Positions 3 to 28,184 are shown, numbered from the stretch's first letter. The stretch is DNA of 29,896 nt from a virus (IMGVR_UViG_3300031760_000017), one strand, 5' to 3'. Numbers and translations are program-made. Notes: generated by a model not told the origin, from the sequence alone.

Positions 3-693
3 GTGGCTGCCGCTTTTGGTTGTAAAATGGTTCTTGGTTCAGATGCTCATTATCTTAAAAAAGAAGATAGATATGTACATAAAGCATATCTTAATTCAAA
101 AGGTGGAGAGCGTGAAGTTGATGCGTTTTATGAATACGCATATCTTCAAGATGAAAATGATATAAAAGAAAACATTTTACCATCTGAATTAAACTATGAT
201 GAGTTAGTTTTTAATTCATATGAAATTTATAATAAAATTAAAAATTATGATATTAGACATCAACAAACAATTCCAAAAGTGAAAGTTAAAGATTATCCAA
301 AAGAAGATGAAGAATTAAAAAATAAAAATCATAATGGAATAAGATTTTTTAATGATAAATATCCTATTTTAGCAAATATGAAAAAATCTGAAGATATTTA
401 TGAGAGATATTGGGTAAACGAATGTATTAATAAATTAGATAAACTACGTTTATATAATAATAAATACCTTTCTCGATTAGAAGAAGAAGCGGATATTAAG
501 AAAACTATTAGTGAAAAATTAGGAACTAATATGTTTAGTTATCCAATAACTCTTCAACATTACGTTGACCTCTTTTGGGAGTGCGGAAGCACAGTTGGTG
601 CGGGACGTGGTTCATCTTGCTCAGGGTTAAATCATTATCTTTTAGGCATTACTCAGCTTGACCCAATTAAATGGGATCTTCCGTTCTGGAGAT
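3..693 (+). CDS. DNA polymerase III alpha subunit (DnaE/PolC family), exon 1. It is 5'-truncated by the window edge. It contains the PHP domain and the conserved GAGRGSSCSGLNHYLLGITQLDP...FWR stretch.
   Basis: The ORF 3..704 translation matches the DnaE PHP/palm motif GPGRGSAAGSLVAYxLGIT-DPL-FxxLFERFLN. The reading frame is broken after FWR by the intron. Exon 2 continues with YLNKERVELGDIDLDLC, which aligns with DnaE FLNPERVSMPDFDVDFC. Confidence 0.85.
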
Positions 694-1729
694 TAGAACT
701 TTAAGAAATAGTCTCCCTATACTGTGAAGTATAGTATAAAAAATTTTGTGAACTCTATTGCTCAGAGGTGTGTAAAGAACGTTAAGTATTTAGTAGGAAA
801 TGACTAATTAATCTTTATGCTAACAGGGGAGCCTTAGCAAGTAAAGTTGAAGGTAATCCAGTGCCAAGCCTATTATTAGGAAGGTGTAACGACTATCCGA
901 AAGGAGTAGGGCAGATGATGAGCTACTGCTCGAAGTGCAAAAATCTTTAAATATTTTCTACCACTTTGGTCAAAGTGGGATAAATTAATTAATCGAATTT
1001 TTATATATAATAGAGAGATATAGAAAGGAGATTAATAATATGTTAATCTATAAAATAACGAATTTAATAAATAATAAATGTTATATTGGTCAGACAATAA
1101 AAACTGCTGAATAGAGATGGAAAGAACATCAAAGTCATGCATTTGGCTCGCATTTAAATGATCAAAATAAAACTTTATATAAAGCAATAAGAAAATATGG
1201 TCTTGAAAATTTTACTTTTGAAGTTCTTCAAGATAATATTGAAACTTTTGAACAATTAGATAAGGCAGAAATTTATTGGATTGATTATTATAATAGTTTT
1301 GTAAAAGGATATAATGAAACTTTTGGTGGTCAACAATATCATAAAATTCTACCAAATAAAGAGATTATAGAAGATTATTACAAAACAAAAAGTGCTAGAA
1401 AAACTGCTTTAAAATTTGGAATAGATCATTCTACAGTAGATGACATTTTAAATCAAAATAATATTCCAAGATTCAGTTTTAGAGAAGCCACAGGAAAAAG
1501 AATTAAAATTTCAAAAGATGATTTTGAAAAAGATTTTAATTCAGTTAAAGATTGTGCTGAATGGTTTGTAGAAAATCAAATCTGCAAAACTAAAAATGTA
1601 GAAAGCGCAAGAGCTGGATTAAAAACTGCAAGATCATCTAAAGGAAATGGCTTATATTATGGTTATTTAATAGAAAATATTTAAAGAATAAGATATAGTC
1701 TGTGCCATTAGAAATAATGGAATTACACG
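694..1729 (+). mobile_element. Group I self-splicing intron in the DNA polymerase gene.
   Basis: The 5' exon end ggagaU (688-693) pairs with an internal guide gtctcc (711-716), including a U.G wobble at the splice site. Conserved R/S-like P7 elements gactatc (891-897) and aagatatagtct (1690-1701) are present. A P9-like hairpin ccatta..taatgg follows. The terminal omega-G at 1729 leaves the splice in frame (FWR-Y-LNKERV). An internal HEG has its own RBS. Confidence 0.8.
1040..1684 (+). CDS. GIY-YIG homing endonuclease encoded within the polymerase intron. It contains one in-frame TAG at 1112-1114.
   Basis: The N-terminus reads MLIYKITNLINNKCYIGQTIKTAE-TAG-RWKEH, the GIY..YIG...R..H motif as in I-TevI and Seg proteins. 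The RBS aaaggag lies 8 nt upstream. The C-terminal region is a basic DNA-binding tail. The TAG interrupts the motif and must be read through. Confidence 0.8.
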
Positions 1730-4356
1730 ATTTAAATAAAGAACGTGTTGAGTTAGGCGACATAGACTTAGATCTTTGCCCTTCAAAACGTCCATTAATT
1801 CTTCAAAAAATAAAAGAAGAACGTGGTCAGAATTTTAATAAAGATATTGATGATTTAAGTAGAAAAAACCTTGGTTGTACACTTATTGCGACTTTTGGTA
1901 CAGAAGGAACTAAATCAGCAGTATTAACAGCTTGCCGCGGTTACCGCTCAGAAGATTTTCCAGACGGGATTGATGTTGATACAGCTCAGTTTTTATCTTC
2001 TTTGATTCCAAGTGAAAGAGGTTTCTTATGGCCTCTTAAAGATGTCGTTTATGGAAATAAAGATAAAGATAGAAAACCAATTACGCCTTTTATTTCAGAA
2101 ATTAATTTATATCCTGGTCTATTAGATATTGCAATGGCGATTGAAGGATTGATAAATAAAAGGTCTAGTCATGCTTCTGGTGTTATTCTTTTTGATGAAG
2201 ACCCGTACGAGTTTGGATGTTTTATGAAAACTCCAAAAGGAGAAATTATAACTCAATGGGATCTTCATAAATGTGAAGCATGTGGCATGACAAAATATGA
2301 TTTCCTTGTAACAGAAGTTCAGGATAAAATTGTTCAAACAATTAAACTTCTTCAAAAAAATAATAAAATTGATAAAGACCTTTCTTTAAGAGAGGTGTAT
2401 GATAAATATCTTCATCCAGAAGTTTTACCTTTAAACGACGAAAAAATATGGAAAGCTCTTCAAAATAATAGCGTTTTAAATGTTTTCCAGTTTGATTCAG
2501 ATGTAGGATCACAAGCCGCAAAGAAAATTAAACCAACTAATATTCTTGAAATGGCGGATGCCAATGGTTTAATGCGTCTTATGACATCTGAGAAAGGCGA
2601 AGAGACGCCTATGGAAAAATATATTCGTTATAAAAATAATATCTTATTATGGTATCAAGAGATGAATCGAGCTGGATTAACAGATGAAGAGCAAAAAATT
2701 ATTGAACCATATTTCAAACAATCTTATGGAGTTCCGCCATCACAAGAGCAATTAATGAGAATGTTAATGGATAAGAATATTTGTAACTTCTCATTAAAAG
2801 AAGCTAATGCCGCACGTAAAATTGTTGGTAAAAAACAAATGGCAAAGATTCCTGAATTACATCAAAAAATCTTAGATACAGCTTCTAGTTCGTCTCTTGG
2901 TAAATATATTTGGAAATGCGGTGTTGGTCCTCAGATGGGATATTCGTTCTCTATTATTCACGCTCTTGCTTATTCTTTTATTGGAGTTCAAACAATTTAT
3001 TTAGCGACTAATTGGAATCCAATTTATTGGAATACCGCATGTCTAATTATTAATAGTGCTTCTCTTGAAGATGAAGATGACGATGAAGATGATGATGAAG
3101 ATAACACTAAAGATAAATCTACTGATTATTCTAAATTAGCAAAAGCTATTGGAGATATAACTTCAAAAGGAATTAAAGTATCATTAATTGATATTAATAA
3201 ATCTGGATATAGTTTTGAACCAGATGAAGAAAATAATGAAATTCTTTTTGGATTAAAAGGTGTTAATAAAATTGGCGGTCCAGTTATTGATAAGATTATT
3301 GGCGGTCGCCCCTACACTGGAATTATTGATTTTATGAATAGATGCCCGCTAAATAAAACTCAAATGATTTCATTAATTAAGTCAGGAGCTTTTGATAAGG
3401 TTGATAATAATTGGGCATCAGAAATCTGTAAAGAAAACCCAAGATATGCAATAATGGCGTATTATATATCAATAGCTAGTGAACCAAAGAAAAAATTAAC
3501 ATTACAAAATTTTAATGGATTATTAAAAAATAAATTAATTCCAGAAAGTTTACTTAAACAACAACAGATTTTTATATTTAATAAATTTCTTAAAGAAAAT
3601 AAAAAAGTTGGTAAATACTATGTTTTTGATGAAGGTTCTTTAAATTTTTATTCTTATTACTTTGATTTAAATGAATTAGATGTTATTAATGGAATTACTT
3701 GTATTCTTCAAAGTAGATGGGATAAAATTTATAAGAGAGAAATGGATGAAGTTAGAGGTTGGTTAAAAGAAAATCAAGAAGAGGTTTTAAATCAATATAA
3801 TAACTTATTATTTAAAGAAACTTGGAATAAATATGCAACTGGAAACGTTTCTGCTTGGGAGATGGAAAGTTTATGTTTTTATTATCATGAACATGAATTA
3901 CTTAATATTGATAATTATAAATATGGAATTGTAAACTTTTCATCTTTATCAGAAGAGCCAGTAGTTGATTATTTCTTTAAGAGAGGAGATAGAAAAATTC
4001 CAATCTTTAAATTATATAGAATTGCTGGAACAATTATTAGTAAAAATAATACTAAAGCATCTATCACCATTTTAACAACAGATGGAGTTGTAAATGTAAA
4101 ATTTACAAAAGAATATTATGCTATGTTTAATCGTCAAATTTCTGAAAAGCAACCAGATGGTACTAAAAAAGTATTAGAAAAAGGTTGGTTTTCTCGTGGT
4201 ACAAAAGTTTTAATCACAGGATTTAGACGAGAAGACACCTTTGTAGCAAAAACTTATAAAGCAACTCCTACTCATCAATTATATAGAATCATCAATGTAA
4301 ATGATAAAAAGATTACCTTAGAACATGAAAGGATAAACGCAAATGTAGAAGATTAA
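1730..4356 (+). CDS. DNA polymerase III alpha subunit, exon 2 (palm/fingers/OB region). It has an acidic low-complexity insert EDEDDDEDDDEDN at about 3058-3100.
   Basis: The ORF 1702..4356 (884 aa) has no in-frame TAG, TAA or TGA. It runs LNKERVELGDIDLDLCPSKR...GVILFDEDPY...QWDLHKCEACGMTKYDFL and has DnaE-like order. It ends with TAA. Confidence 0.85.
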
Positions 4357-4918
4357 AGTTCTTGCGCTTTTTGGAGAGTCAGGTGCTGGAAAAGATACAA
4401 TCCAGCACTGGCTCGAATGGTATTTAAAAGATACTATACATAGAATAGTATCTTATACAACAAGACCTCAACGAAGCTATGAAATTGAAGGTCGTGATTA
4501 TTATTTTATATCAAAAGATAAATTTTTTGAATAGCTCAATGATAATAAAATACTTGAATACACCTGTTTTAATGATTGGTATTATGGAACTTCCATTAAT
4601 GAATTAAAAAAAGATAAAATAAATATAGGAGTTTTTAATCCACAAGGTATTCGCAGCCTACTATCACATTCAGATACTATTGATGTGCTTCCAGTTTGGA
4701 TAAAAACAAAAAACAAATAGCGTCTCTTGCGCTCTTTAAAAAGAGAAATTTATCCAAACTGCACAGAGATTTGTCGTCGTTTTTTAGCAGACCAAAAAGA
4801 TTTTCAAGGAATTGATTTTGAATATGAATTCTTTTTAAACGACACAGATACAGATCATTATATTGGATTTCTTAATAGACCAAAAGTAGCAGTATTTTTA
4901 AAGGACAAAAATGATTAA
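4342..4918 (+). CDS. Guanylate kinase-like (d)NMP kinase. It has three in-frame TAGs, at codon 2, about 4531 and about 4720.
   Basis: It contains the P-loop LFGESGAGKDTI and the GMP-binding motif SYTTRPQRSYEIEGRDYYFISKDKFFE-TAG-LNDNKILEY...WYYGT. The start ATG overlaps the polymerase stop. The track ORF 4727..4918 is the C-terminal fragment after the last TAG. Confidence 0.75.
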
Positions 4919-4987
4919 TTTTATTAAAAGTTTTTTAAATAATAAGAGAGAAATTATATGATTTTTAGTAAAACGGGAGGTTTTTAA

Positions 4988-5215
4988 ATGATTATATTAT
5001 ATTCAACAAATTGCCCAAAATGCAATGTTTTAAAACAGAAACTACAAAATCTTAATATTGATTTTTAGATTTCTGAAGATATTAAAGAATTAATTTAGAG
5101 AGGTTTTAGAGAAGCTCCTATTTTAAAGATTGATAATTAGTATTTAAAATTTTCTGAAGCTATTCAATGGGTAAAGGAGAAAACGAAACTTGAACATAAC
5201 AATTAGACTAAATAA
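4988..5215 (+). CDS. NrdH/glutaredoxin-like redoxin. It has four in-frame TAGs.
   Basis: MIILYSTNCPKCNVLKQKL...GFREAPILKIDN matches the NrdH CxxC thioredoxin fold (compare YTRNDCVQCHATK...GFRQLPVV). The RBS gggagg lies upstream. The gene sits immediately upstream of nrdD, as in NrdH-containing operons. Confidence 0.65.
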
Positions 5216-7130
5216 AAACTTTACGACAGCTTATAATAGATTACAAGCTGAATATGGAACTTAGATTGCAAAAATAAACGGTTTTGCAGATGAGCAACTA
5301 TCTTATAATGATTTTATTAGTAATTTTATAAATGAAGATACCGTTGCGGATGCTAGTATTGATGGTAATTCAAATGTATCTCACAAAGACATTGTTACAT
5401 TACTAAATGAAATGCCTAAATCTCATAGAAAATTATTAGCTTTTAATAAAATTCATTATGAAATGCAGAAAAAATATGGTTTTAAAATAGCTAATGAGTG
5501 GTTAAAACTTGAATGGATGGGTGCATTATATATGCACGATTCTGATACATCTACTTTTAAAAGTTATTGTTTTGCTTATGATTTAAAAGATGTTGCAGAA
5601 AAAGGTTTGTTTTTCTTAGGTAAAAATTTTAATGCAAAACCGCCGCAACATTTAGGGACATTTGTTGATTTTGTAAAAGAATTTATTTCTTATAATAGTA
5701 ATAGAACATCTGGTGCAGTAGGTTTACCTAATTTAATTCCTTATATGTTTTATTTCTGGAATAAAGATATAAAAGAACACTATTGGTTAGGACCGCCAAA
5801 AAAATATGCTATTCAAAATTTTCAAAGATTTATTTATGCAGTAAATCAACCTTATGTAAGAGACGGTTCTCAATCAGCTTTTACTAATACATCAGTATTT
5901 GATCGTCCTTATTTTGAAGCTCTATTTGGAGGAAGTGTTTTCCCAGATGGAAGTTTTATGATTGATTATGAAGATGAAATTATTAATTTTCAAAAATGGT
6001 ATATGGAAACCATGTCTGCTATTCGATCTGAAAATATGATGACTTTCCCAGTAAGCACAATTTCATTGCTATATCAAGATGGTAATTTTGTAGATGAAGA
6101 TTTTGCAAAATGGGCTATTAAGCATAATATGAGATGGTCAGATAGTAATTTATTTGTAGATGATAGTGTTAATAGTTTATCTAACTGTTGTAGATTAAAA
6201 AGTAATATTGATGAACTAGGATACTTTAATTCTATTGGTGGAACCGCATTGAAAGTTGGTTCTGTAAAAGTTAATACTATAAACTTAGCTAGATTAGCTC
6301 TTGATACTGATTCGGAAGAAGAATATTTAAAAGAGTTAAAAAGAAGAACAATTATTTGCTTACAATCTTTAGATTGTGTTAGACACATTATCAAAAGAAA
6401 TGTAGAAAAAGGTTTACTTCCTAATTTTTCTTATGGATTAATAGATTTTGAACATCTTTATAATACTATTGGGTTCTTAGGCATTTATGAAACCATGAAA
6501 GCTTTTAATTATATTAAAGAAGACGAATTTGGAAATATTTTTTATACAGAAGAAGCTTCTAAATTTGGTAAAAAAATCTTTGATGTAATTCATTCAACAG
6601 CAGATGATTTTATTGAAAAAAATCATTTAGATTATAAAATAAATACAGAACAAATCCCTGGAGAAACTGCAGCTGATAAATTAATGAAAAAAGATAAATT
6701 CTTTTATCCAACTGCAACTATTTATGATTTGCCTCTTTATGGTAACCAATTTATCCCTCTTGGAATAAAAACAACATTACAAGAAAGAATTAGAATTCAA
6801 GCTTTATTTGATCATTATTGTAATGGAGGTTCAATTCTACATGCTAATATAGATGCTCCATTTGATAGTTTTGATAAAGCTTGGGATATGGTAAAATACA
6901 TAGCCGATCAAGGTGTAACGTATTTTGCTTTTAATACGAAGATTCAAGCATGTGAGGATAATCATGCTTTTTATGGGACAACATGCCCAATTTGTGGTAA
7001 ACCTATCGCAACAGAATATACAAGAATTGTTGGATTCTATACTCCAATTAGAACATGGTCTACTCATAGAAAACAAGAATATAGTATGAGGAGATGGGAG
7101 AAAATAAATGATAATAAAAGGACTAATTGA
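5190..7130 (+). CDS. nrdD: Anaerobic ribonucleoside-triphosphate reductase (class III RNR) NrdD. The likely start is TTG at 5190 after the RBS aaggag. There is one in-frame TAG at 5262.
   Basis: The track ORF 5412..7130 (572 aa, TAG-free) aligns with T4 NrdD: ...GALYMHDSD (compare GIIHVHDID), the zinc ribbon CPICG, and the glycyl-radical motif RIVGFYTP near the C-terminus. The conserved N-terminal region continues upstream of 5412 through one TAG, back to a TAA at 5172. The stop is TGA. Confidence 0.85.
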
Positions 7131-7608
7131 TGAAGATTTTATAAATTATAAAAAGCCTTCTATGACTATTGAATTTCCTTATTGCACTTTTAAATGTGAT
7201 AAAGAATGCAATCAATCTATATGTCAAAATAGTACTTTAATAAAATAGCCAGATATTGAAATAAGTTATGATGATTTATTACAAAGATATATAAATAATT
7301 CAATAACAAAAGCTATTATCTTTCAAGGATTAGAGCCTTTAGATTCTCTTTCTGATGTTATAAATTTAATAACTTTATTTCGTATTAAATATAATTGTAA
7401 AGATGATATAGTAATTTACACAGGATATAAAGAAGAAGAAAAAGAAGTTTGCTTTTTAAAAGAATTTCTTTTATCATCATATAAATAGATTAATAAAAAT
7501 ATTATAATTAAATATGGAAGATATATACCAAATCGATCTTCTCGTTTTGACTAGATACTAGGAGTAAATCTTTCATCAAATAACCAATATGCTAAAAAAA
7601 TTTGCTAA
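7108..7608 (+). CDS. nrdG: Anaerobic RNR activating protein (radical SAM) NrdG. It has three in-frame TAGs.
   Basis: The FPYCTFKCDKECNQSIC cluster corresponds to the T4 NrdG region GCLHKCEGCYN. QGLEPLD matches GGDPL, and IVIYTGYKEEE matches IWLWTGYKFED. It overlaps the nrdD stop, and the RBS gaggag lies upstream. Confidence 0.8.
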
Positions 7609-7620
7609 AAGAGGTTAAAA

Positions 7621-7998: not shown

Positions 7999-8007
7999 GG
8001 AGAAAAT

Positions 8008-8268: not shown

Positions 8269-8280
8269 AAAGGAGATAAT

Positions 8281-8526
8281 ATGTCAAAATATTTAGTAAG
8301 TACAGTAGAAACATATAGAGTCGATACAGAAGCGGAAGCAACTAAAGCAATAGAAGAAGCAAAAAGTGATAATGCGTATGTTCTTGGAAAATATACAAGC
8401 GAACATAAAACTCGTAAAGCAAAAGGCGAAATTGTTGATGAATATTGGAAGTTATCTTTAACAAAATTATTTAATGATATTAAAGAAGCTAATACTATTG
8501 TAGAAATTAATTATGAGGTAGAATAA
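8281..8526 (+). CDS. Hypothetical protein (81 aa).
   Basis: Track ORF with RBS aaaggag. Its stop overlaps the dut start (ATAATG). Confidence 0.5.
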   Translation: MSKYLVSTVETYRVDTEAEATKAIEEAKSDNAYVLGKYTSEHKTRKAKGEIVDEYWKLSLTKLFNDIKEANTIVEINYEVE

Positions 8527-8969
8527 TGACAGAAAATATAAAAGTTAAAAAACTTAATGATTTAGCTAGATTTCCAACGAGGGGTTCTTCGGCCGCGGCA
8601 GGATATGATTTATATGCGGCAACTGATGGTCCTGTTTATATTTTACCACATTCCACAATGAAAATTGGAACAGGTCTTTCTTTTGAACTTCCTGAAGGAA
8701 CATTTGCAGCAATATTTGCTAGATCAGGTATTGCCGCAAAACAAGGTCTTCGTCCCGCCAATTGCGTAGGCATATGTGACAGTGATTATCGTGGATAGTA
8801 TATTGTAGCTATTCATAATGATACAGATGAGGTCCAAACTATTGTATCTCAAGAACGAATCGCTCAAATGATTCTTCTTCCTTATATAGAAATGGATTTT
8901 TATGAAGTAGATAATTTATCTGAGACAGAGCGCGGAGAAGGCGGCTTTGGTTCAACTGGTAAAGTTTAA
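8526..8969 (+). CDS. dut: dUTP diphosphatase (trimeric dUTPase). It has one in-frame TAG at 8796-8798.
   Basis: Motifs present: ARFPTRGSSAAAGYDLYA (motifs 1 and 2), RSGIAAKQG, CDSDYRG-TAG-YIV (motif 3), ERIAQMI (motif 4) and ERGEGGFGSTGK (motif 5). The track ORF 8526..8798 stops at the TAG inside motif 3. Confidence 0.9.
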
Positions 8970-9188: not shown

Positions 9189-9232
9189 GAGGGTAGATGA
9201 TTTAATCATCTACCCTTTTATTTTTATTCATT
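9189..9232. terminator. Bidirectional rho-independent terminator between the convergent early (plus) and morphogenesis (minus) transcription units.
   Basis: Perfect 11-bp stem agggtagatga / tcatctaccct with a 5-nt loop. It is flanked by an A-tract on the left and tttatttttatt on the right. Confidence 0.8.
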
Positions 9233-9781
9233 TTCCATCGGTAAATTAGTTATAATATTTCTACCGCCGTTTGCATAAGTAGCAAAATCAATTACTTGTT
9301 TATATTTATTTACATCAAAACTTTCTACAATTTTTGCAGCAGCCTCTGCATTCGCGGGTAAATCATTAATAAATGATTGAATAATTGCCGCAACGCTCAT
9401 ATGATTCTGTATTAAAGAATCTTTAATCGCATTAAGTTGTACAAAAAGTTCATTATATTCCTCTTCATTAATAGCTTGGAAAAACTGTTCAAAGAATCCA
9501 TTACTCTTTAATGTATCATATAATTTTAATTCATCTTCTCTTTGTTTTTCAGTAAATGAAATATTTGTATATAAATACACTAAATTTAATTCAAAATAAA
9601 GATTCAATTTAAATTCATTATAAATACCATTTTCCTAAGCTTTCTGTAATGTAATCATTAATAAATCATACTTATCTCTTGCGGGAAGATATTGTAAAAC
9701 CTAAATCTTTTGTCCGCAAAAATCAAAAGTTTTAATCTATGAATTAACTTTTAATTTCATATTTGCATATGATACTTTCAT
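9224..9781 (-). CDS. Hypothetical protein (about 185 aa), last gene of the minus-strand operon. It has three in-frame TAGs.
   Basis: Its RBS is aaggagat. The track ORF 9224..9607 is its C-terminal 127 aa. The N-terminal continuation is in frame across TAGs. Confidence 0.55.
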
Positions 9782-9794
9782 TTTTTATCTCCTT

Positions 9795-11018
9795 TTAACT
9801 CCCTCTGCTTCTATTATTAATAGTTGTTTTTAATCTTTGTAAATCAGTATCAAGATTAATAGCATCAGTAATTTTTGTTTTTAAAACCTAATCTATTTTA
9901 TTATACAATCTATTTCGTGTATTTGCATCTTTTTTTGCTGTCTATTTCCAATTCTAAACGTCTTTTTTAGAAAAAGCCCCTTGACTTCTTACAACTTTTT
10001 CAGCGAAGTCAAAAATTTGTTTAAGTCCTAAAGAAGAAGCGCCGCCTCCTTTTATCCCATATTCTGTATCTCCTAAAGAAACATCGCCAGCTAAAAAGCC
10101 AGATTCATCATCAACTCCAACAACTCCACCATGACTCCATTTTTTTATATTATCCTAACTCGTTCCTTGCTAACTGAGATAAAGTCTTGTTCCATTTTCA
10201 TTACCAAATAAAAAAAACTCTACTTGATGTTCTAAATCTTTATTTTTAAATGGTGCAAAAATATGATTAAGAGCATAAGCTGCATAAGCCTAACTAATAT
10301 CTCCACCTGCAACAACAAAAACTCCATGCCATCTTTTATCAATTTTATATAATACAATTTTTAATTTTTCACGAGTTCCGTCAGTTTTTCTATATTTAGC
10401 ATGCCTATATCGCCATATTACTTCTAAATAAGTACTCCTTAAAGCCGAAAAATCAGAATTAGTAGTAGAAAACTCTATCATGTTTTTTTCTTCTTTTTCC
10501 TCATTAGTAGTTCTTTTATATTTATTTATATTATATTTAAATATCATATTACTTTTATCAAAGCCAGACAATAAATCTTCACTATCAGCAAAAAGAATCG
10601 TAGCATTATCTTCAAAAACAAAAACCATCTGAACATATTGATCTAAAATCTAATTCATTTTTTCTTGATACCACATAATATTTTTGTAAAAACTTTTTGT
10701 AGCTGTCTAATTTAAAGTAGCACTTTGCATATAATTTTTAAAAAAAGTAAAGTATTCTAATGTTTTTGAATCTATTTCATCTGGTTTTTTTGCAGCACTT
10801 TTTATATTTCTTCTAAGTTGAACTATTCGATTTCTAATTTTTCTTGATGTCGTAAGGCTTTTTATTATCTAATCATTCCTTTTTAAAAATAAAAAAGAAT
10901 AATTATAAATTTTTGCATTTATTTCATCAATTTCAGGTTGAGTCATTTCAATAGCATTATCACCAAGTTCTTCATATATACGTTTTATTTCATTTTGATC
11001 AGTAACTATTGAAGCCAT
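9795..11018 (-). CDS. Hypothetical protein (about 407 aa) with nine in-frame TAGs. It has a Gly/Asp-rich conserved-looking block, HGGVVGVDDESGFLAGDVSLGDTEYGIKGGGASSLGLK.
   Basis: The track ORF 10290..10628 is an internal fragment. Frame continuity runs from the ATG at 11018 (RBS aggtga) to TAA at 9795. Confidence 0.5.
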
Positions 11019-11049
11019 TTTATATCACCTATATTTATTTTTTAAAAAA

Positions 11050-11078
11050 AATAAGGGGAATATTTATATTCCCCTTAT
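11050..11078 (-). terminator. Rho-independent terminator downstream of the 330-aa structural gene.
   Basis: Minus-strand hairpin aaggggaatat-aaat-attcccctt followed by a T-run. Confidence 0.65.
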
Positions 11079-11098
11079 TAAATTAAAGATTATTGTCA

Positions 11099-12091
11099 TT
11101 AATCTCTTGATTCATCAAATTCATCTGTCTCACTTCCATTAACAGAGTCCTCATAAGATTCTTCAATAGAAGCTCTATTAGCTGGATGCGGGAAGATAGT
11201 GCTTGTTGTATCTGTTACACCAGTTGAATCATCAACAATTTGAATTGCACAAAGAACTTGTTTCTTTCTATCAAAATAAGTATATCCTGGGAAAGCGTCC
11301 ATAGTAAAAGTAAATGTACTAGGATCTCCAGTAGATGCCATTGAGAAAGTAAAGTTAGATTGAATTTTTACGTTAGGAAGTGTAATATTTGCAGGTAAAT
11401 CTTTTCCGTCTGCCTGACGTCTAAATAAAGTATCTGCTTCAACATAGTAGTATCCAGCAAAATGACCTGCATCAATTTGAAGTTCAGAAACAGTATCAGC
11501 TTTTTTCTTTACATAATAATCAACCATAACTGTTCCATTTGTAGGAGCAGTTCCAGTTCCCGCATATTCAAGAGTTCTTCCTTTGATTGTTTTTGTATTA
11601 GTGTTAGTTGTAGCACTTACTCCATAATCTTTATAAATATCACCAGTTAAATCTCCATACTCGTCAATATTCATAATATACAATGGAGCTGTTGAACAGA
11701 TTTCTTCAGTTGGTTCAAGAGCATCATCTAAATTAATAACTCCAGTTGCGCCAATTGTTGCCATAGATGTTTGATGGAAATGAATAAGATCACTTGTATT
11801 CTTCGCTCCCTTTACAACACCAGCACCAGAAAGCATAGCAAAACTAATTGGAGAAAGAAGCGCATCTTCAACAGTGAATGTTAAAGTTTTTTCACCTTCC
11901 CAAGAAATTAAACGAGTATTTCCGCGACCACCTGTTGCGTACACTGTAGTAGCCGCACCTTCTAATGTAGAGGTTTTTGCAGAGTCAAGATAAAAAACTG
12001 GCTGTCCTTGTTTAAAAATAACATTACCAATTTTCTGATCATTCTTTGCTCTAAAGACTACATTAACAATTTCACGTACACCAAATTTCAT
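11099..12091 (-). CDS. Major virion structural protein (330 aa, TAG-free), probably the major tail protein or tube. It has a Thr/Gly-rich Ig-like C-terminal region.
   Basis: It has a strong RBS aaggagg and a long TAG-free ORF. It is flanked by its own terminator. Its position is downstream of the capsid and connector genes. The composition (TxT repeats, beta-rich) is typical of major tail proteins. Confidence 0.55.
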   Translation of the reverse strand: MKFGVREIVNVVFRAKNDQKIGNVIFKQGQPVFYLDSAKTSTLEGAATTVYATGGRGNTRLISWEGEKTLTFTVEDALLSPISFAMLSGAGVVKGAKNTSDLIHFHQTSMATIGATGVINLDDALEPTEEICSTAPLYIMNIDEYGDLTGDIYKDYGVSATTNTNTKTIKGRTLEYAGTGTAPTNGTVMVDYYVKKKADTVSELQIDAGHFAGYYYVEADTLFRRQADGKDLPANITLPNVKIQSNFTFSMASTGDPSTFTFTMDAFPGYTYFDRKKQVLCAIQIVDDSTGVTDTTSTIFPHPANRASIEESYEDSVNGSETDEFDESRD

Positions 12092-12146
12092 TTGGATTTC
12101 CTCCTTATATTTTGTACAAAATATTGATTGTCTTTATTTAGTTATT

Positions 12147-12881
12147 TTATTCATGAATATCTTTTAGCCAATCTTCTGGATCATCCATTCCAGAACATCC
12201 TGCGGCTTTAAATCTCTACCAAGAATCATAACGCAGTTTTAATTCAAATCGGTTAAATTCATCCATTAATTGATAAATAGTATAATTCATTAAATCATTT
12301 ATATTTTTTTTCTCGCCAACAGCAAGAATGGAAACATAACGACTTAATATAGCAATTTTAGAATCAGGCGCCAGCTTCGCCTTTTTCTATCTACCTCTTT
12401 TTATCTTATCGGCAATTTTTTGAGCTAACTATCCACTTGGATTATACTATTTATTTTCTTTATTTGTGAGACAAAACATAGTAATAATAATTTCTTTAAA
12501 AGCTTCAAAATTATCTTCATTTATTTCATTAACTTCTCCAGTCTAATTATCACGTAATTGTATTGCCCCTTTTTCCAATAAAATTTCTTTTGTTGGAAAT
12601 AATAATGCAAGAAGAGATAAAACATTTAATTTAGCCTAATAAGCCTATAAATTTTTTTCTTGTATTATCATCATTATTATATTAAAATTTGACATATTTG
12701 ATAAATCAATTTTGTCCTAATCTATTAAATTTTCTTTATTAAATTTTAATATTTCACATCCAGGCCAAAATTGCTTCTAAGTAATGTATGCTATTTCTTT
12801 TAATCGCGGCTGATGAATTGTTAATTGAGCCTAAGGGAAAGGTAAATCATTACCAGATAATAATAATAATTCATCAATCAT
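12147..12881 (-). CDS. Hypothetical protein (about 244 aa) with 11 in-frame TAGs.
   Basis: The ATG overlaps the upstream stop (ATGATTGA). The frame is continuous apart from TAG codons and ends with TAA. Confidence 0.45.
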
Positions 12882-13482
12882 TTTTTGGAATCCATCCATG
12901 CGAACTTGGTAATACATCATCTGTCCCATGGATAGCTGAATATACCATAGTATAACCAGATAAAGTTTCATCTAAAATTAATTCATTGCAACCTGCAAAT
13001 TGAAAGGTGCCTATTCCAGATAAACGTGCTTTGTTAAGAATTCCATCAATATAGCCCGCAATTTTTAAAGGTCTAATTCTAAAATTTCCTAAATCCCAAT
13101 AATCAGTATGACAAAGAATATCAATATTAACATTACAATCTCTAAATTCAGGATTTCTCATATTTGGTCTAAAATTATCAAAACTAATTAATAAATAACT
13201 TTTAACCTATTCATGTTCAGGCATCTTTATTTTAGGCTCAAACTTTATATAACCTTGCTATCTTAATTTAGCTAAACTCATATCTTTAATAGCATTTTGA
13301 TAAACCGTACTTGTTTTATTATCTAAACAATCTTTTGTATTTATTACTAACAATCTTTTTAATTCATCACTATAAGGTTGACTAGTCACAAAAAGTCTTT
13401 TTAAAATTTCTTCTAAGTCTTTCTAGCATGATAAAAAAGATGAAGTAAAATCAACAGGTCTTAAAGCTAAATCTCTCTTCAT
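12874..13482 (-). CDS. Hypothetical protein (about 202 aa) with three in-frame TAGs, a possible neck or tail-completion protein.
   Basis: The RBS aaaaggag precedes it. The track ORF 12874..13161 is its C-terminal 95 aa. Confidence 0.5.
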
Positions 13483-13507
13483 ATATTTTATCTACTCCTT
13501 TTGTCTC

Positions 13508-14488
13508 TTATAAAGATATAATCTTTACATCTAATTTAATATCTTCTTGTCCTTCTACTCTATATATTAAAGTAAAAGACTTAAGTTTTCCTTCTATCTC
13601 TAATGGAAGAATCTTTAAAGAACTATTTAAATCCTTTTCTTCTTCTCCCCATAACAAATACCAATGTCCATTTTCAGCATTACATATCTCATAATATGCT
13701 TTACTATATTGTTGCACTTGAGTGGGACCATTAATATATGCGGCAGTTTCGTCTATAGGATCTTGTTGTCCAGTCTATTGATTTTCTTTAGCAGTTGCTT
13801 CCGCAATAGTATTCTCAAAGAATTCATCTAAAAATACTTGAATTATACCATCACCATAATAAGGATCAACACCTACCACTTGCCAAGTTTTCTCAACGTT
13901 TTTTCTTGGATCTAAAACTTTAATTGTTTTAAATCTTTCAAAATAATTATTTGTGTTTTCATCAGCTGTAATATACATAACTAATGAATAATTTATAGTG
14001 TTCCATTCAATTCCAGACTTTTGTGACCATTCAATAGAAGTTTCAACTGGACCTCTAATATAAACCCAATAACTTTTATCCCCTACTTGAACCTATTGAT
14101 CACATCTGCGGATTTCTGATCTAAAATAAGCATCTTCTTCAAGAAACTCTAAATAAACTAACCAATGTGTATTAGTCTATTTCCAAGTAAAAACGTTTCC
14201 TGGTCTCATATTAATATCAACTTCTCCATCAGAAGTTTTGCCTATTTTTGGCGCATTTAAACATATATCTCTATATGGAATTGAAATAATTTTATTATCA
14301 TAGGCGGGTTTATTTTTATCAGGGTTGATTAAACATCTAAACTATCTTCCATCTTCTAGAACTGCGGTTGCCGCCTGATAAGAATATAATAAAGCTTTTT
14401 TTAAACTTCTTAATTTGTCATTAATAAATCTTTGCTATTGATTCCCGCCATGATATTGCAATCTTTTATTTAATAATTCTAATGACAT
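13508..14488 (-). CDS. Hypothetical protein (about 326 aa) with five in-frame TAGs.
   Basis: The track ORFs 13508..13717 and 13775..13978 are in the same frame, separated only by TAG. Upstream continuity runs to the ATG at about 14488. Confidence 0.55.
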
Positions 14489-14799
14489 ATCTTTTCTTTC
14501 AATTCATTCATTAGTCCTAAACATTCAAAAATAGTTCTACGATAACATAGAAAATCATCCTCTTTAGTTAATGAATAAAGTCCTTCTAATTTATTTAATA
14601 ATGGGAAAAAAATTTCCGAATATTTTTCTCCTATTAGTCTTTTCATACCAATAAGTTCTTCTAAAATTGTTTCTAAAGGTTTTTGCCAATCTAAACCTTC
14701 TTCTCGACTAGGTAAAAGTTTATATGTTTGATTAATAAGGTTTTGCAATCTATTTGAAATTACATTATTCTAAATATTAATGTTATATTTTAATAACAT
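14470..14799 (-). CDS. Hypothetical protein (about 109 aa) with two in-frame TAGs.
   Basis: The track ORF 14479..14748 is its core. The start overlaps the upstream stop (ATAATG). Confidence 0.45.
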
Positions 14800-15338
14800 T
14801 ATTCTTCTCCCATTCTCTTTTTATAATTTTTTTCTTCTAAATTAACAGAAGAAAATTTAACAGGTTGCATAATTTTTCCAAAAGTAGATCGCATGACTCC
14901 CTATTCATCTGGTATTCTTCTTTTATATAAACGTTGTAAATGAAAACCTTCTCTTTCATAATCCTTTTTTAATTGAAGAAGTTTTTGCATATGATTTGCT
15001 TGTGAGGTAAATTTAAAATCTGTTCCGCTATATTTCATTCTAGTATTCTAAACACTAGCTAATTGCTGACTTAACCACTAAACAATCATATACACCGCTA
15101 AAATATTTATCTCTTCACGTGTCAACTCATTGTTAAAACAAAAATATTCTTCACCATTTTCTTCTAATTTTTGATAATCCCATAGATTAATTCTAGGAAA
15201 TTCAAATTTTTCAATAGCAGAAATTAATAATTCCTATAACATTCTATGAGTATCCTATAAAGTTAACTAAAGGTACATATCATCAGTAATTTTTGAAAGA
15301 AAAGAATCATATACTAATGAAAATGGAGTAGTATTCAT
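14799..15338 (-). CDS. Hypothetical protein (about 179 aa) with six in-frame TAGs, a candidate head-tail connector or adaptor.
   Basis: It runs continuously from the ATG (RBS aggggg) to TAA. It lies just downstream of the capsid module. Confidence 0.45.
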
Positions 15339-15354
15339 TTATACACCCCCTAAA

Positions 15355-15924
15355 TTAATTGTTTGGTTTATATCTTCTACCTGTTGGCGCGGCAGTCTGT
15401 TTAATCGGCGTAGCTCTTCTAGTTGTCTGTTTTGTAGCAGAATTTAAAATATTTTCTTCTCCGCTATCAAATTTAGTATTTTTAATTTCAATTGCTTTAC
15501 TAACATCAAATCCAAGTTTTTCTTGAATTGCATTTCTTTTGCTTACATCATTAAGAGGAAGATTAACTGCCATATCTTTAATATTTTCTAAAACGGATTC
15601 TGGAGCAAAATCTAAACAATCTAAAAATTGCTCTAAAGTACCAACTTTCATAAGCTCTTCTATATCTTTATTAGAATAATGATATTCTGGTTCTGGTTCT
15701 TTCCCGAAGAGTATCTTCGCAGCTTCTTCATCTTTAATTTCAAGATATTCACTTAATATAACCTTACCGCCAGGTAAAAAAGAAAGTCTTTCTAATTCAT
15801 TAAAACTTATCTATTTTTGTTCATGCGGATAAAAATCTCTATGAACTCTTAAATCTGGTACATCATATCCAACAGTGCCACCAAATTTATTAACAACTTT
15901 TATCATACTGTTTTTATCTATCAT
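15355..15924 (-). CDS. Hypothetical protein (about 189 aa) with one in-frame TAG.
   Basis: The track ORF 15355..15651 is its C-terminal 98 aa. The N-terminal continuation runs to the ATG at 15924 with a strong RBS aaaaggag. Confidence 0.5.
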
Positions 15925-15961
15925 ATTTTAAAAATCTCCTTTTATCTCCTATATAGTAGAA

Positions 15962-15992
15962 AAAAGGGAGAATTAAAAATTCTCCCTTATTA
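15962..15992 (-). terminator. Rho-independent terminator or attenuator immediately downstream of the major capsid gene.
   Basis: Hairpin gggagaat-ttttaa-ttctccc followed by a T-tract on the minus strand. Confidence 0.7.
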
Positions 15993-16111
15993 TATTTTTT
16001 GCACGTTTAGGCCTATTCCAGACTAATCTATATTAAAAACATCTTCCTCTGGAACACCCCATAAACTTGTGGGGTCATTATTCAATCTTTCCCAAGCTGA
16101 AATAGACCCAA

Positions 16112-17209
16112 TTAGTTTCCCCATGATGGGTCTTGGTCTAGTCCAGGCATAGCCTTAACTAAACTAACATTCTTATATACACAAATACCAGGATTAATCA
16201 TATAAGTAGCAACACCAAGTTTTTGATAAGTCTGGATTTCTGTTGACCAATCGCGGTTTTCAAAAGATTTTACTTGAGCAGCTCCTTCAAAAGCTACTTT
16301 AACAGGTTTCTCTGCTCCAGTAGGAATAATCCAAGCGTATGATGGATCAATTACTTTTTCACTATTAGTTTCATCTGTAAAAGACTGCGGAAGAATAATT
16401 ACTTGATGTCCTTTGTAAGTTCCTAAAGAACCATTATTCCAAATCTGTTCTTTCATTCCATCAGACATCGCATTCCAGTTTAATGAAGCCTGGTTGTTAG
16501 CAATAGTTGTAGGAGCCATTGTTGCAGCAAATTCAAATGTACAATAAATTGTACTCTTACCATAAACGTCTGCTGTCATAAGAAGCTGATCCATTGCCGC
16601 TTCATTAAATCCAGTCTGAGCTGTTTTATTTGTAGCAGGAATATTTAAAACTGTAGCTTCAAGAGCTTTTGCAATTTCACGATAAACTGCTTCATCCATT
16701 CCTTCAAGTACAAGACTATAATAATCATTCATAGTCATACGACCATCAAGAAGTTCTTCCCATTCAATACGAGAAGCGCCTCCATAAGCAGCTGTCGGTA
16801 CTTCAAGTGAATATCCATCAAGCTTGAAGACTTCATATCTACCTGCTAAACCAACTCTTGTTACAAACTGTTTAGCACGTTTCTTAGAAGCTTCACTGAT
16901 TCTTACTTTATAAACAGGTCTTGTTCCTTGCGCGAATGTACGAACATCAGCAAACTGTCCATAATTCTGAAGGACCTTTTGCGGAAGAACTTCTGTAAGA
17001 CCTACTTCAATAAGTGTATAAATAAGATTTTTATTTTCTCTAAAATCTTGAGGAGTCGCCCCAAGTTCGTTTAATTCTTTAATAAAAGTTTTATTCAGAG
17101 CTTCTGCTGAAAGCTTTTCTCCACCAAAAGAAAAAGCAGTAGAAGGATTTAATGATGCTTTCGCATTGGCTCTAGCTAATTCAATAAGCTGATCTCTTGT
17201 TAATGCCAT
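16112..17209 (-). CDS. Major capsid protein (HK97 fold, 365 aa). It is TAG-free.
   Basis: Track ORF with a strong RBS aaggagg. The length and sequence character are typical of phage major capsid protein. It is followed by a terminator and preceded by the scaffold-like and head genes. Confidence 0.8.
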   Translation of the reverse strand: MALTRDQLIELARANAKASLNPSTAFSFGGEKLSAEALNKTFIKELNELGATPQDFRENKNLIYTLIEVGLTEVLPQKVLQNYGQFADVRTFAQGTRPVYKVRISEASKKRAKQFVTRVGLAGRYEVFKLDGYSLEVPTAAYGGASRIEWEELLDGRMTMNDYYSLVLEGMDEAVYREIAKALEATVLNIPATNKTAQTGFNEAAMDQLLMTADVYGKSTIYCTFEFAATMAPTTIANNQASLNWNAMSDGMKEQIWNNGSLGTYKGHQVIILPQSFTDETNSEKVIDPSYAWIIPTGAEKPVKVAFEGAAQVKSFENRDWSTEIQTYQKLGVATYMINPGICVYKNVSLVKAMPGLDQDPSWGN

Positions 17210-28182: not shown

Positions 28183-28184
28183 AA

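What the first reader, a model, noticed from the sequence alone, without database searches (positions are those of the whole stretch)
3..17209. TAG codons are excluded from the most abundant or core proteins but frequent in neighbouring genes
Several genes have zero TAG: DNA polymerase (about 1100 codons), the NrdD core (572), the major capsid protein (365), the 182-aa head protein and the 330-aa major tail-like protein. In adjacent genes the density is much higher. Terminase has about 15 in 551 codons, the 244-aa gene has 11, the 407-aa gene has 9, the 446-aa gene has 9, portal has 3 and scaffold has 5. Both homing endonucleases carry TAGs too. This is not an early/late split, because capsid and terminase are in the same operon. 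It suggests selection against TAG where very high or early translation is needed. That would happen if suppression is inefficient or supplied late. It could also mean TAG is used to throttle or gate expression of specific late and selfish genes.
Basis: seen in the sequence. Interest (0 to 1): 0.8.

Follow-up and report, generated by a model that had tools for sequence, protein, structure and literature searches.

The report
Phage reads TAG as glutamate, unevenly
This is part of a large gut or rumen phage genome in which the stop codon TAG appears to be read as glutamate (not glutamine, the only reading reported so far for such phages), and the phage keeps TAG out of its capsid, tail-tube and DNA-polymerase genes while using it freely in neighbouring genes.

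Summary
With TAG read through, the window becomes a compact SPbeta-like phage map with 99 in-frame TAGs and none used as a stop. DnaE (1112 codons), the capsid protein YonB (365), a 182-aa head protein and the tail tube YomU (330) have none. In 55 of 55 recoded relatives the three abundant virion proteins use TAG for 0.95% of Glu-family codons, against 17.6% in other late genes. TAG use in late genes falls as an independent codon-bias proxy rises (rho = -0.74). DnaE avoids TAG without that bias, which points to timing as a second factor. TAG sites are not conserved, so fixed "gate" codons are unlikely.

The unexpected result is that TAG aligns with conserved Glu, not Gln: 25 of 25 conserved columns in the window, including a Walker-B-like Glu in TerL. 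Relatives carry a tRNA(CUA) with tRNA-Glu-like features. Sister lineages read TAG as Gln or keep the standard code.

I rate this a new variant of a known kind.

The parts
3..704 (+). DnaE (Pol III alpha-type) exon 1, cut by the window's left end; 0 TAG
   Evidence: orthologs have 0 TAG in 13,003 codons
1040..1684 (+). GIY-YIG homing endonuclease inside the DnaE split; 1 TAG
   Evidence: orthologs 3.2 TAG per 1000 codons, against 0.07 in DnaE exon 2
1717..4356 (+). DnaE exon 2 (exon boundary not mapped exactly); 0 TAG in 879 codons
   Evidence: orthologs have 3 TAG in 44,300 codons
4343..4918 (+). nucleotide-kinase-like gene; 3 TAG
5190..7130 (+). NrdD; the 572-codon core from ATG 5412 has 0 TAG; the likely full gene from TTG 5190 has 1 TAG (5262-5264)
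   Evidence: Pfam NRDD
7108..7608 (+). NrdG-like activase; 3 TAG
   Evidence: weak Pfam Fer4_12 hit
8526..8969 (+). dUTPase; 1 TAG in the motif DSDYRG[TAG]
9795..11018 (-). 407-aa late gene; 9 TAG
11099..12091 (-). tail tube protein (Pfam YomU_Tube; PHROG virion structural protein); 0 TAG
   Evidence: orthologs have 11 TAG in 13,766 codons
12147..12881 (-). YomV-like 244-aa gene; 10 TAG (36% of its Glu-family codons)
12874..15924 (-). five head-tail and neck-region genes (YomW-like 202 aa, 326, 109, 179 and 189 aa) with 3, 5, 2, 6 and 1 TAG
16112..17209 (-). [not shown]
   Evidence: orthologs have 9 TAG in 24,072 codons
17227..17775 (-). 182-aa head-module protein (SPbeta YonC position, function not verified); 0 TAG
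   Evidence: orthologs have 8 TAG in 13,587 codons
17790..19133 (-). YonD_N scaffold-like protein; 5 TAG (10% of Glu-family codons, intermediate)
19212..20783 (-). portal protein; 7 TAG
20816..21175 (-). HE-like 119-aa gene; 3 TAG
21237..22703 (-). TerL exon 2; 13 TAG, including the Walker-B-like GGLME[TAG]C
22889..23464 (-). HNH homing endonuclease inside the TerL split; 1 TAG
23555..23818 (-). TerL exon 1; 1 TAG
23815..25155 (-). YonG_N 446-aa gene; 9 TAG
25199..26335 (-). sigma-factor-like 378-aa gene; 5 TAG
26673..29209 (+). small plus-strand genes (early-type region); 1 TAG in five genes (632 codons)

Best explanation
The window comes from a roughly 135-kb SPbeta-like tailed phage. Its host is probably a Bacillota/Clostridia species.

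In this phage TAG is a sense codon for glutamate. A phage tRNA(CUA) decodes it. That tRNA is encoded elsewhere in the genome, in a tRNA cluster.

The suppressor looks like a tRNA-Glu. It has a C1-G72 first pair, A73, U11-A24, a long D-loop with bases 20a/20b, and an anticodon loop one base away from CUC. The inference is that host GluRS charges it with Glu, and that neither GatCAB nor GlnRS can turn it into a Gln-tRNA.

TAG use then follows mutation-selection balance.
- TAG can arise from GAG by one G-to-T change, which AT pressure would favour.
- In genes of low or moderate expression it drifts to about 18-20% of Glu codons, and its positions turn over quickly.
- It is purged where a missed or slow decoding event costs most. 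These are the proteins made in hundreds of copies per virion (capsid, the 182-aa head protein, tail tube), with intermediate levels in the scaffold-like and YonA-position proteins.
- It is also purged from genes that must be translated before the suppressor accumulates (DnaE and some replication-side genes).

Shown here: the counts, their statistics, family-wide conservation, TAG aligning to Glu, the suppressor gene in close relatives, and the correlation with codon bias.

Inferred: competition with RF1, the charging enzyme, the GAG origin of TAG codons, expression levels and timing.
For: Recoding and counts.

TAG = Glu.
- In alignments built with TAG provisionally translated as Q, columns holding TAG in which at least 90% of the other residues are one amino acid are E in 83 cases and Q in 22. 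The nearest non-TAG neighbour is E 67% of the time (GAA 1186, GAG 395) and Q 9%.
- In the window, all 25 TAGs that fall in columns conserved at 80% or more align to E.
- Against four standard-code TerLs, 9 of 14 window TAGs sit at invariant E, including GGLME[TAG]C against LMEEC.
- A second, BLAST-based method agrees.

Family-wide avoidance.
- MCP 9 TAG in 24,072 codons, head 8 in 13,587, tube 11 in 13,766, DnaE 3 in 57,303.
- TerL exon 2 373 in 22,562 and portal 334 in 34,884.
- Core below other late genes in 55/55 loci and 38/38 clusters.
- The independent Gln-type lineage shows the same pattern, 2 against 176 TAGs. So does phAss-1.

Link to expression.
- Standard-code relatives already show G-ending bias in the same three genes: CAG/(CAA+CAG) 0.71 against 0.29.
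- Spearman rho=-0.74, P=7e-4 across 17 late families.

Source of TAG. TAG+GAG together make up about 27-31% of Glu codons in both core and other late genes, and the base after TAG resembles that after GAG. Both fit an origin from GAG.

Suppressor.
- One conserved tRNA(CUA) sits in the tRNA cluster of five Glu-type contigs, including the window's closest large relative.
- Rfam scores it at 62.8 bits as a tRNA, and it folds as a cloverleaf.
- Its closest non-suppressor tRNA among 106 family tRNAs is phAss-1 tRNA-Glu(CUC).
- GatCAB needs U1-A72 and rejects the U20B D-loop (PMC2811023).

Against: - No expression, proteomic or timing data were available. Abundance is inferred from protein function and from codon bias.
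- The suppressor tRNA was not found in the window or its 10-kb right flank. It is known only from relatives whose proteins are 81-87% identical.
- The suppressor has a 5-nt variable loop, unlike classical tRNA-Glu, which lacks residue 47. Its similarity to tRNA-Glu(CUC) is only 69%, so Glu charging is not proven.
- Within this single window, the late-operon heterogeneity is only moderately significant (P=0.007).
- NrdD orthologs are not TAG-free across the family (13 TAG in 4,514 codons). NrdG and a kinase in the same plus-strand block carry TAGs, so the 'early genes avoid TAG' part is leaky.
- No enrichment of a suppression-friendly base after TAG was seen.
- The MCP structural model is of low confidence (pLDDT 51).
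Confidence: 0.72

Rival explanations
1. Chance or base composition: TAG is spread uniformly given codon and amino-acid content, and the zero counts are sampling noise.
For: Individual genes have few Glu codons (11-27 in the three late TAG-free genes). Single-gene tests in the window are only P of about 0.005-0.1.
Against: Heterogeneity tests give P<3e-6 over all genes and P=0.007 within the late operon. The same genes are TAG-poor in 55/55 recoded relatives and 38/38 clusters. GC3 of the TAG-free genes (0.15-0.18) equals that of their neighbours, so composition does not explain the pattern.
Confidence: 0.01
2. Pure temporal code switch (the Borges et al. model): TAG-free genes are simply those translated before the suppressor is expressed, and TAG-bearing genes are late.
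For: DnaE and the small plus-strand genes at 26.7-39 kb are almost TAG-free without any codon bias. This fits published descriptions of recoded phages (bioRxiv 10.1101/2021.08.26.457843).
Against: Capsid, head and tube genes lie inside the late operon between TAG-rich genes. They are TAG-free and carry strong expression-type codon bias, which is also present in standard-code relatives. Replication-block genes such as NrdG, the kinase-like gene and the glutaredoxin-like gene carry TAGs.
Confidence: 0.12
3. Programmed throttling or gating: TAGs are placed in particular genes (terminase, connectors, selfish endonucleases) to hold down or delay their expression.
For: With 14 TAGs, TerL yield must depend steeply on read-through efficiency. 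An intron endonuclease enriched in recoded stops was reported in other phages. Here GIY-YIG orthologs have about 45 times the TAG density of their host gene's second exon (3.18 against 0.07 per 1000 codons).
Against: TAG positions are not conserved: 603 columns, median occupancy 8%, none above 80%, 208 singletons, interchanging with GAA/GAG. TAG density varies continuously with the codon-bias proxy rather than marking a discrete gene set. The HEs in the window have 1 TAG each, which is not enriched.
Confidence: 0.1
4. Mosaicism: the capsid, head and tube genes were recently acquired from standard-code phages and have not yet accumulated TAGs.
For: These genes have higher overall GC (0.35-0.36 against about 0.27-0.31). 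Standard-code and recoded lineages are interleaved when ranked by MCP identity to the window.
Against: The GC excess is in codon positions 1 and 2 (amino-acid composition), not position 3. Absence of TAG persists across lineages whose MCPs are 64-100% identical to the window's, and in two further recoded lineages. Repeated recent replacement in every lineage is not a parsimonious explanation.
Confidence: 0.05

Closest known systems
TAG-to-Gln ('code 15') recoded phages: crAss-like, Lak, and the related phAss-1/Phassvirus group (Borges et al. 2021/2022; Peters et al. 2022; Babkin et al. 2023, PMC10607447)
   Same: In-frame TAG in structural genes and TAG not used as a stop. A phage-encoded tRNA(CUA) and replication genes largely in standard code. 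phAss-1 is a true relative: it is syntenic with the window and its MCP is 52% identical.
   Different: Here TAG aligns with Glu, not Gln. Borges et al. state that only TAG-to-Gln and TGA-to-Trp were seen in phages whose code differs from the host's. The suppressor has C1-G72 and A73 plus a tRNA-Glu-type D-loop, instead of the U1-A72 and G73 seen in phAss-1 Sup3. Exclusion of TAG from capsid and tube genes was not described in the papers I could read.
Peritrich ciliate nuclear code (NCBI table 30, TAA/TAG to Glu); from my own knowledge, not tested here
   Same: UAG is read as glutamate.
   Different: It is a eukaryotic nuclear code that reassigns both UAA and UAG and involves changes in eRF1. 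It is not a virus-imposed code inside a standard-code host.
Expression-linked codon bias (translational selection), and avoidance of reassigned or rare codons in highly expressed genes; established codon-usage theory
   Same: Avoidance is graded and strongest in the most abundant proteins. It correlates with bias at unrelated codon families.
   Different: The disfavoured codon is a reassigned stop. Mis-decoding it truncates the protein, and the tRNA that reads it is supplied by the virus itself.
Bacillus phage SPbeta virion module (YonG, YonF, YonE, YonD, YonB ... YomW, YomV, YomU)
   Same: Colinear Pfam hits to YonG_N, YonD_N, YonB, YomW, YomV_2nd and YomU_Tube.
   Different: SPbeta uses the standard code, as far as I know. 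The proteins here are too divergent to hit my local Pfam or PDB copies at the sequence level.

Membership tests
Stop-codon-recoded (alternatively coded) phages | Conserved genes are interrupted by one in-frame stop codon, and read-through restores coding density | tested here: met
   ORF coverage rises from 17.6 to 30.9 kb, giving a compact map with portal, TerL, MCP and tube
Stop-codon-recoded (alternatively coded) phages | The recoded codon is not used as a terminator | tested here: met
   all modelled genes end in TAA or TGA
Stop-codon-recoded (alternatively coded) phages | Phage-encoded suppressor tRNA with anticodon CUA | tested here: inconclusive
   None in the window or its right flank. 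Present in the tRNA clusters of five Glu-type relatives, including the closest large contig.
Genetic code 15 (TAG = Gln) | TAG positions align with conserved glutamine | tested here: not met
   Window: 25/25 conserved columns are Glu and 0 are Gln. TerL against standard-code relatives: 9 of 14 at invariant Glu. Positive controls phAss-1 and L033/L062 do give Gln.
Temporal code-switch model (early genes standard, late genes recoded) | Replication and early genes free of the recoded stop; structural genes carry it | tested here: inconclusive
   DnaE and the small early-type genes are TAG-free. NrdG, kinase, glutaredoxin-like and dUTPase genes carry TAG. Capsid, head and tube are TAG-free although they are late.
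Programmed gating by recoded stops | Conserved TAG positions or a discrete, preferentially recoded gene set | tested here: not met
   no TAG column is occupied in more than 80% of sequences, and the median is 8%; the gradient is continuous. Lysis genes are not in the window.
Translational selection on codon usage | Avoidance scales with expression level | tested here: met
   Tested by proxy only. rho=-0.74, P=7e-4 against G-ending bias at Gln and Lys codons in standard-code relatives. The ordering follows expected copy number (capsid, tube < scaffold < portal < terminase). Direct expression data are not available with these tools.
tRNA-Glu identity / escape from the Gln route | First pair is not U1-A72 (GatCAB determinant, PMC2811023) | tested here: met
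   C1-G72 in the register confirmed by ARAGORN and Rfam
tRNA-Glu identity / escape from the Gln route | Supernumerary D-loop bases (20a/20b), as in tRNA-Glu | tested here: met
   The suppressor D-loop is AGUGGCUUAA. Phage tRNA-Glu has AAUAGGCUUAG or AGCGGUUUAA, and phage tRNA-Gln has AAGUGGUAA.
tRNA-Glu identity / escape from the Gln route | Absence of residue 47 (4-nt variable loop), an E. coli GluRS identity element; from my own knowledge | tested here: not met
   The variable loop is GGAUC, 5 nt. phAss-1 tRNA-Glu(CUC) also has 5 nt.
tRNA-Glu identity / escape from the Gln route | The tRNA is actually aminoacylated with Glu | not testable with these tools
   Needs charging assays or proteomics
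HK97-fold major capsid protein (for the 365-aa gene) | HK97 fold | tested here: met
   [not shown]
Tail tube protein (for the 330-aa gene) | Membership of a tube family | tested here: met
   Precomputed Pfam PF27173 YomU_Tube on the gene and on all 120 listed homologs. PHROG 2729, virion structural protein, E=1e-52. The structural model was too poor to use.

The most novel reading that the evidence does not exclude
A family of large Bacillota phages holds three genetic codes side by side: standard, UAG = Gln and UAG = Glu. If so, UAG = Glu would be the first natural stop-to-glutamate code in a bacterial virus. Under this reading it arose from a tRNA-Glu(CUC)-like gene by one anticodon change. 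The amino acid inserted at UAG would then be toggled by a few tRNA identity nucleotides (the 1-72 pair, base 73, D-loop bases 20a/b). These decide whether the Glu-charged or GlnRS-accessible suppressor ends up carrying Glu or Gln. The cost of decoding this virus-supplied codon would be visible as an abundance-graded purge from capsid and tube genes.
Probability: 0.45. Interest if true: 0.85.

Novelty: new variant of a known kind. Interest (0 to 1): 0.72.

Why it matters
1. Annotation. The surveys and annotation tools covered in the papers I read assume TAG = Gln (table 15) for TAG-recoded phages. For this family, which has thousands of MCP homologs in public data, that assumption would mistranslate roughly one Glu in six in late proteins. 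It would include putative catalytic residues such as the Walker-B-like Glu of the terminase.

2. Mechanism of recoding. Recoded stops in phages have been viewed mainly as a timing switch. An abundance-graded purge of TAG suggests instead that suppression carries a per-codon cost. Much of the TAG pattern may therefore be mutation-selection balance rather than regulation.

3. Evolution of the code. Closely related standard, Gln-type and Glu-type lineages give a natural series for studying how a codon changes meaning. They also show which tRNA identity elements might decide the outcome, and these ideas can be tested with charging assays and proteomics.

Tried and rejected
- I first normalised TAG against Gln codons, assuming code 15. 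I dropped this once the alignments showed Glu. The CAG enrichment I had noticed in capsid genes turned out to be general G-ending bias, not a TAG-to-CAG replacement.
- Searching for tRNAs near MCP, DnaE and DnaB in about 220 related loci found none, apart from one tRNA-Ser. Walking along contigs would have needed too many scans. A pattern built on the anticodon arm shared by two phAss-1 suppressors finally hit the family's tRNA clusters.
- Recurrent 16-mers, tried as landing sites, turned out to be early-region operator- or promoter-like repeats. A tRNA-Ser shared only 13 nt with phAss-1's.
- Sequence searches of TerL and a TerL profile against the PDB, and of six proteins against local Pfam and three against NCBIfam, gave nothing useful. 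The Walker B assignment therefore rests on motif order only.
- Both AlphaFold models were poor because the alignments were shallow. Only the capsid model gave a coherent fold-search result.
- The base after TAG shows no enrichment that would suggest selection for read-through context.
- TAG position within genes was non-uniform, but this is confounded by where Glu sits and by relatedness among sequences, so I did not interpret it.
- The 'tRNA-Stop(tta)' in L251 looks like a pseudo-tRNA or false positive.
- An initial frame error on the glutaredoxin-like gene was corrected.
Full report
**1. What the window is.**
The window is 29.9 kb at about 29% GC. Neither ARAGORN nor Rfam finds an RNA gene in it.

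Under the standard code, the minus strand between 9 and 26 kb is a field of short ORFs. Treating only TAA and TGA as stops raises the summed length of ORFs of 100 codons or more from 17.6 to 30.9 kb. Reading TGA through gives only 23.0 kb. Reading TAA through inflates ORFs on every strand, as expected for the real stop codon.

The TAG read-through map is compact and phage-like.
- A plus-strand replication and nucleotide block covers 3-8969. It holds a Pol III alpha/DnaE gene split by a GIY-YIG endonuclease, then a kinase-like gene, a glutaredoxin-like gene, NrdD, NrdG, three small genes and dUTPase.
- A minus-strand late operon covers 9224-26335.
- Small plus-strand genes follow from 26673.

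PHROG and Pfam labels show that the late operon is colinear with the SPbeta virion module:
- YonG_N (446 aa)
- TerL, split by an HNH endonuclease
- a small HE-like gene
- portal
- YonD_N scaffold-like protein (447 aa)
- a 182-aa protein
- YonB (365 aa)
- four small genes
- YomW (202 aa)
- YomV (244 aa)
- YomU_Tube (330 aa)
- 407-aa and 185-aa genes

A published relative exists. Phage phAss-1 (136 kb, human gut) is syntenic with the window, has an MCP 52% identical, is annotated as TAG = Gln, and is predicted to infect Clostridia.

**2. The observation.**
There are 99 in-frame TAGs in 35 modelled genes, and no gene ends in TAG.

- DnaE 0/1112
- NrdD core 0/572
- MCP 0/365
- 182-aa protein 0/182
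- tube 0/330

The TAG-rich genes are essentially correct:
- TerL 14/575
- 244-aa gene 10
- 407-aa gene 9
- 446-aa gene 9
- scaffold-like 5
- the two intron-type endonucleases, 1 each

Portal has 7, not 3. NrdD probably starts at TTG 5190 and then has 1 TAG. A missed 75-codon glutaredoxin-like gene (4988-5215) has 4. The stated coordinates omit the terminase, portal and scaffold genes.

Tests with TAG counted among Glu codons give these results.
- All genes: P<3e-6.
- Late operon alone: P=0.007.
- Left operon alone: P=0.0009.
- The three late TAG-free genes together have 0 of 56 Glu-family codons as TAG, against 83 of 409 elsewhere in the operon. P=3e-6, or about 0.0025 after allowing for post-hoc choice.

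The higher GC of these genes lies in codon positions 1 and 2, not position 3. So it reflects amino-acid composition rather than foreign origin.

**3. The pattern is a family property.**
MCP, DnaE and DnaB queries recovered about 220 related loci from IMG/VR, several on contigs of 130-165 kb. Orthologs were called on TAG read-through ORFs.

| Gene family | TAG | Codons |
|---|---|---|
| DnaE (both exons) | 3 | 57,303 |
| MCP | 9 | 24,072 |
| head182 | 8 | 13,587 |
| tube | 11 | 13,766 |
| TerL exon 2 | 373 | 22,562 |
| portal | 334 | 34,884 |
| 244-aa gene | 300 | 11,953 |

In every one of the 55 Glu-type loci that hold both gene classes, the three abundant proteins use TAG less than the other late genes do (0.95% against 17.6% of Glu-family codons). 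The same holds in all 38 clusters defined at 80% MCP codon identity (Wilcoxon 1e-10; sign test 7e-12).

About 13 relatives use the standard code.

**4. What TAG means.**
The alignments were built with TAG provisionally translated as Gln, so any bias would favour Gln. Even so:
- Columns that contain TAG and are otherwise at least 90% one residue are Glu in 83 cases and Gln in 22.
- The nearest relative lacking TAG at a site has Glu 67% of the time (GAA 1186, GAG 395) and Gln 9%.
- In the window, all 25 TAGs in conserved columns align with Glu.
- Against four standard-code TerL proteins about 65-71% identical, 9 of the window's 14 TAGs fall on invariant Glu. Only one of roughly 55 aligned residues is Gln.

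The sites include GGK[TAG]QAAS against GGKEQAAS, AKI[TAG][TAG]ICRL against AKIEEICRL, and GGLME[TAG]C against LMEEC. The last has the position and pattern of a Walker B motif whose second acidic residue is the catalytic Glu. That assignment comes from motif order and is not anchored to a solved structure.

The Gln cases come from one lineage, L033/L062/L216, which gives Q 26: E 1. phAss-1 gives Q 10: E 2, in agreement with its publication. Glu-type controls give E 17: Q 1 and E 36: Q 2.

So one phage family contains standard, TAG = Gln and TAG = Glu members.

Borges et al. wrote that only TAG-to-Gln and TGA-to-Trp were observed in phages whose code differs from the host's. Later surveys and tools use tables 15 and 4 only. 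My searches of the held literature found no report of TAG-to-Glu in phages. That library is incomplete, so this negative is provisional.

**5. The suppressor.**
No tRNA lies in the window, in its 10-kb right flank, or near MCP, DnaE or DnaB in relatives.

A pattern scan built from phAss-1 suppressors hit tRNA clusters on five Glu-type contigs, including the window's closest large relative. Each carries one tRNA(CUA). The sequence is identical in three of the contigs, differs at one base in a fourth, and is more divergent in the fifth, L295 (63 of 73 aligned bases):

CGCCCGAUAGUGGAGUGGCUUAACACAGCGGUCUCUAAAACCGCGGAUCCUGGGUUCGAAUCCCAGUCGGGUGA.

Rfam scores it at 62.8 bits as a tRNA in the same register. 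Its minimum-free-energy fold is a cloverleaf.

Its features are:
- C1-G72 and G2.U71
- A73
- U8
- U11-A24
- a 3-bp D-stem
- a D-loop with two extra bases after G18 G19 (C20 U20a U20b)

The phage tRNA-Glu genes share the A73 and the long D-loop. The phage tRNA-Gln genes have U1, G73 and a short D-loop.

The anticodon loop CUCUAAA differs from that of phAss-1 tRNA-Glu(CUC), CUCUCAA, only at position 36. That tRNA is the suppressor's best non-suppressor match among 106 family tRNAs, although at only 69% identity.

Bacterial GatCAB requires U1-A72 and rejects the U20B D-loop of tRNA-Glu (PMC2811023). From my own knowledge, GlnRS favours a weak 1-72 pair and G73.

The inference is that GluRS charges this tRNA and that neither route to Gln can use it. 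The 5-nt variable loop departs from the E. coli tRNA-Glu identity set. Charging has not been tested.

**6. Why TAG is unevenly used.**
Three lines of evidence point to selection that scales with protein output.

- First, the same three genes carry strong G-ending codon bias in standard-code relatives: CAG/(CAA+CAG) 0.71 against 0.29, and GAG/(GAA+GAG) 0.31 against 0.22. They do so in phAss-1 too (MCP GAA 2 / GAG 21, CAA 0 / CAG 15). The bias therefore predates and is independent of recoding.
- Second, across 17 late gene families, TAG per Glu codon in recoded phages falls as G-ending bias at Gln and Lys codons in the separate standard-code genomes rises (rho=-0.74, P=7e-4). The order is the one expected from virion copy number: capsid, 182-aa protein and tube are lowest, then the YonA-position and scaffold-like proteins, then portal, then terminase.
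- Third, the independent Gln-type lineage shows the same purge, with 2 TAGs in core genes against 176 in other late genes.

Early and replication genes break the correlation. DnaE, hyp81 and hyp125 are TAG-poor with no bias. When they are included, rho falls to -0.04. So a second factor, most simply time of expression as in the published model, acts on them. It is leaky, though. NrdG, the kinase-like gene and the glutaredoxin-like gene carry TAGs, and NrdD orthologs are not TAG-free.

TAG+GAG together are about 27-31% of Glu codons in both gene classes, and the base after TAG resembles that after GAG. This fits TAG arising from GAG by a single G-to-T change in an AT-rich genome.

TAG sites turn over fast: 603 columns, median occupancy 8%, none above 80%. 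That argues against fixed regulatory TAGs.

A gene with 14 TAGs can only be expressed if per-codon read-through is high. The cost being selected against in capsid genes is therefore probably small per codon, and multiplied by very high output. This last step is inference.

**7. Verdict.**
Selection against TAG where output is highest or earliest fits the data. Deliberate throttling is not supported.
- Stop-codon recoding in phages is known, so this is not a new kind of system. Two aspects appear undescribed in the literature I could read. One is the Glu assignment, with its tRNA-Glu-like suppressor and with Gln-type and standard-code sister lineages. The other is the abundance-graded exclusion of the recoded codon from capsid and tube genes.
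- Cook et al.'s figure hints that the second aspect may be general. In table-15 phages the MCP was found with the standard code in 407 genomes, against 475 with table 15.
- Direct proof needs proteomics and charging assays.

Noticed in passing
window 705-1716 and 22704-23554: Two essential genes are split by endonuclease-bearing inserts. DnaE is split by a GIY-YIG gene, and TerL by an HNH gene. Exon 1 of DnaE ends ...DLPFWRLEL and exon 2 resumes ...LNKERVELGDIDLDL. Rfam finds no group I or II intron at E<0.1, so the type of insert (intron or other) is unresolved. Some relatives have unsplit TerL.
   Followed up: partly
window 29636-29780, continuing in L221 11050-16500 (window-equivalent 29.9-35.3 kb): An array of repeated motifs lies in the early-type region. 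There are palindromic CACTTTAACGCGTTAAAGTG-like and CTTCACCGCG(C/T)TAAAG elements, plus four copies of AAAATGGGGGTTGACA (a -35-like TTGACA). It looks like an early promoter and operator array among small TAG-free genes.
   Followed up: partly
window 4988-5215: A 75-codon glutaredoxin/NrdH-like gene (CPKC motif) has 4 TAGs, the highest TAG density in the window. It overlaps the probable TTG start of NrdD at 5190.
   Followed up: partly
L075 12442-12532 (phAss-1 62442-62532): One of phAss-1's three tRNA(CUA) genes is a class II tRNA with a long variable arm. Its anticodon arm resembles that of the family's tRNA-Ser(UGA) in L155. It might insert Ser rather than Gln, so phAss-1 may decode TAG ambiguously.
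   Followed up: no
L251 2898-2972: ARAGORN calls a tRNA with anticodon UUA (ochre-type). It is 33% GC, has a weak acceptor stem, and occurs only in this contig. It is probably a pseudo-tRNA or a false positive.
   Followed up: partly
L033, L062, L216, L217 (IMGVR_UViG_3300035499_000522 and 3300043104_000251): This lineage within the same family reads TAG as Gln, and TAG makes up about half of its Gln-family codons in late genes (176 TAG, 150 CAA, 30 CAG). Its suppressor tRNA was not recovered.
   Followed up: partly
L249 1426-1501 (IMGVR_UViG_3300021387_000866): A tRNA(CUA) has the same D-arm, variable loop and T-arm as the Glu-type suppressor, but a different acceptor stem (GCGGCAA/UUGCCGU, G1.U72) and anticodon-stem changes. 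It could be a natural variant useful for mapping identity elements.
   Followed up: no
L106 3666-5498: The RecJ-like replication-block gene carries 10 TAGs in the most TAG-dense relative, while the neighbouring DnaB, primase and RecD-like genes carry 0-1. TAG avoidance within the replication block is therefore gene-specific too.
   Followed up: no
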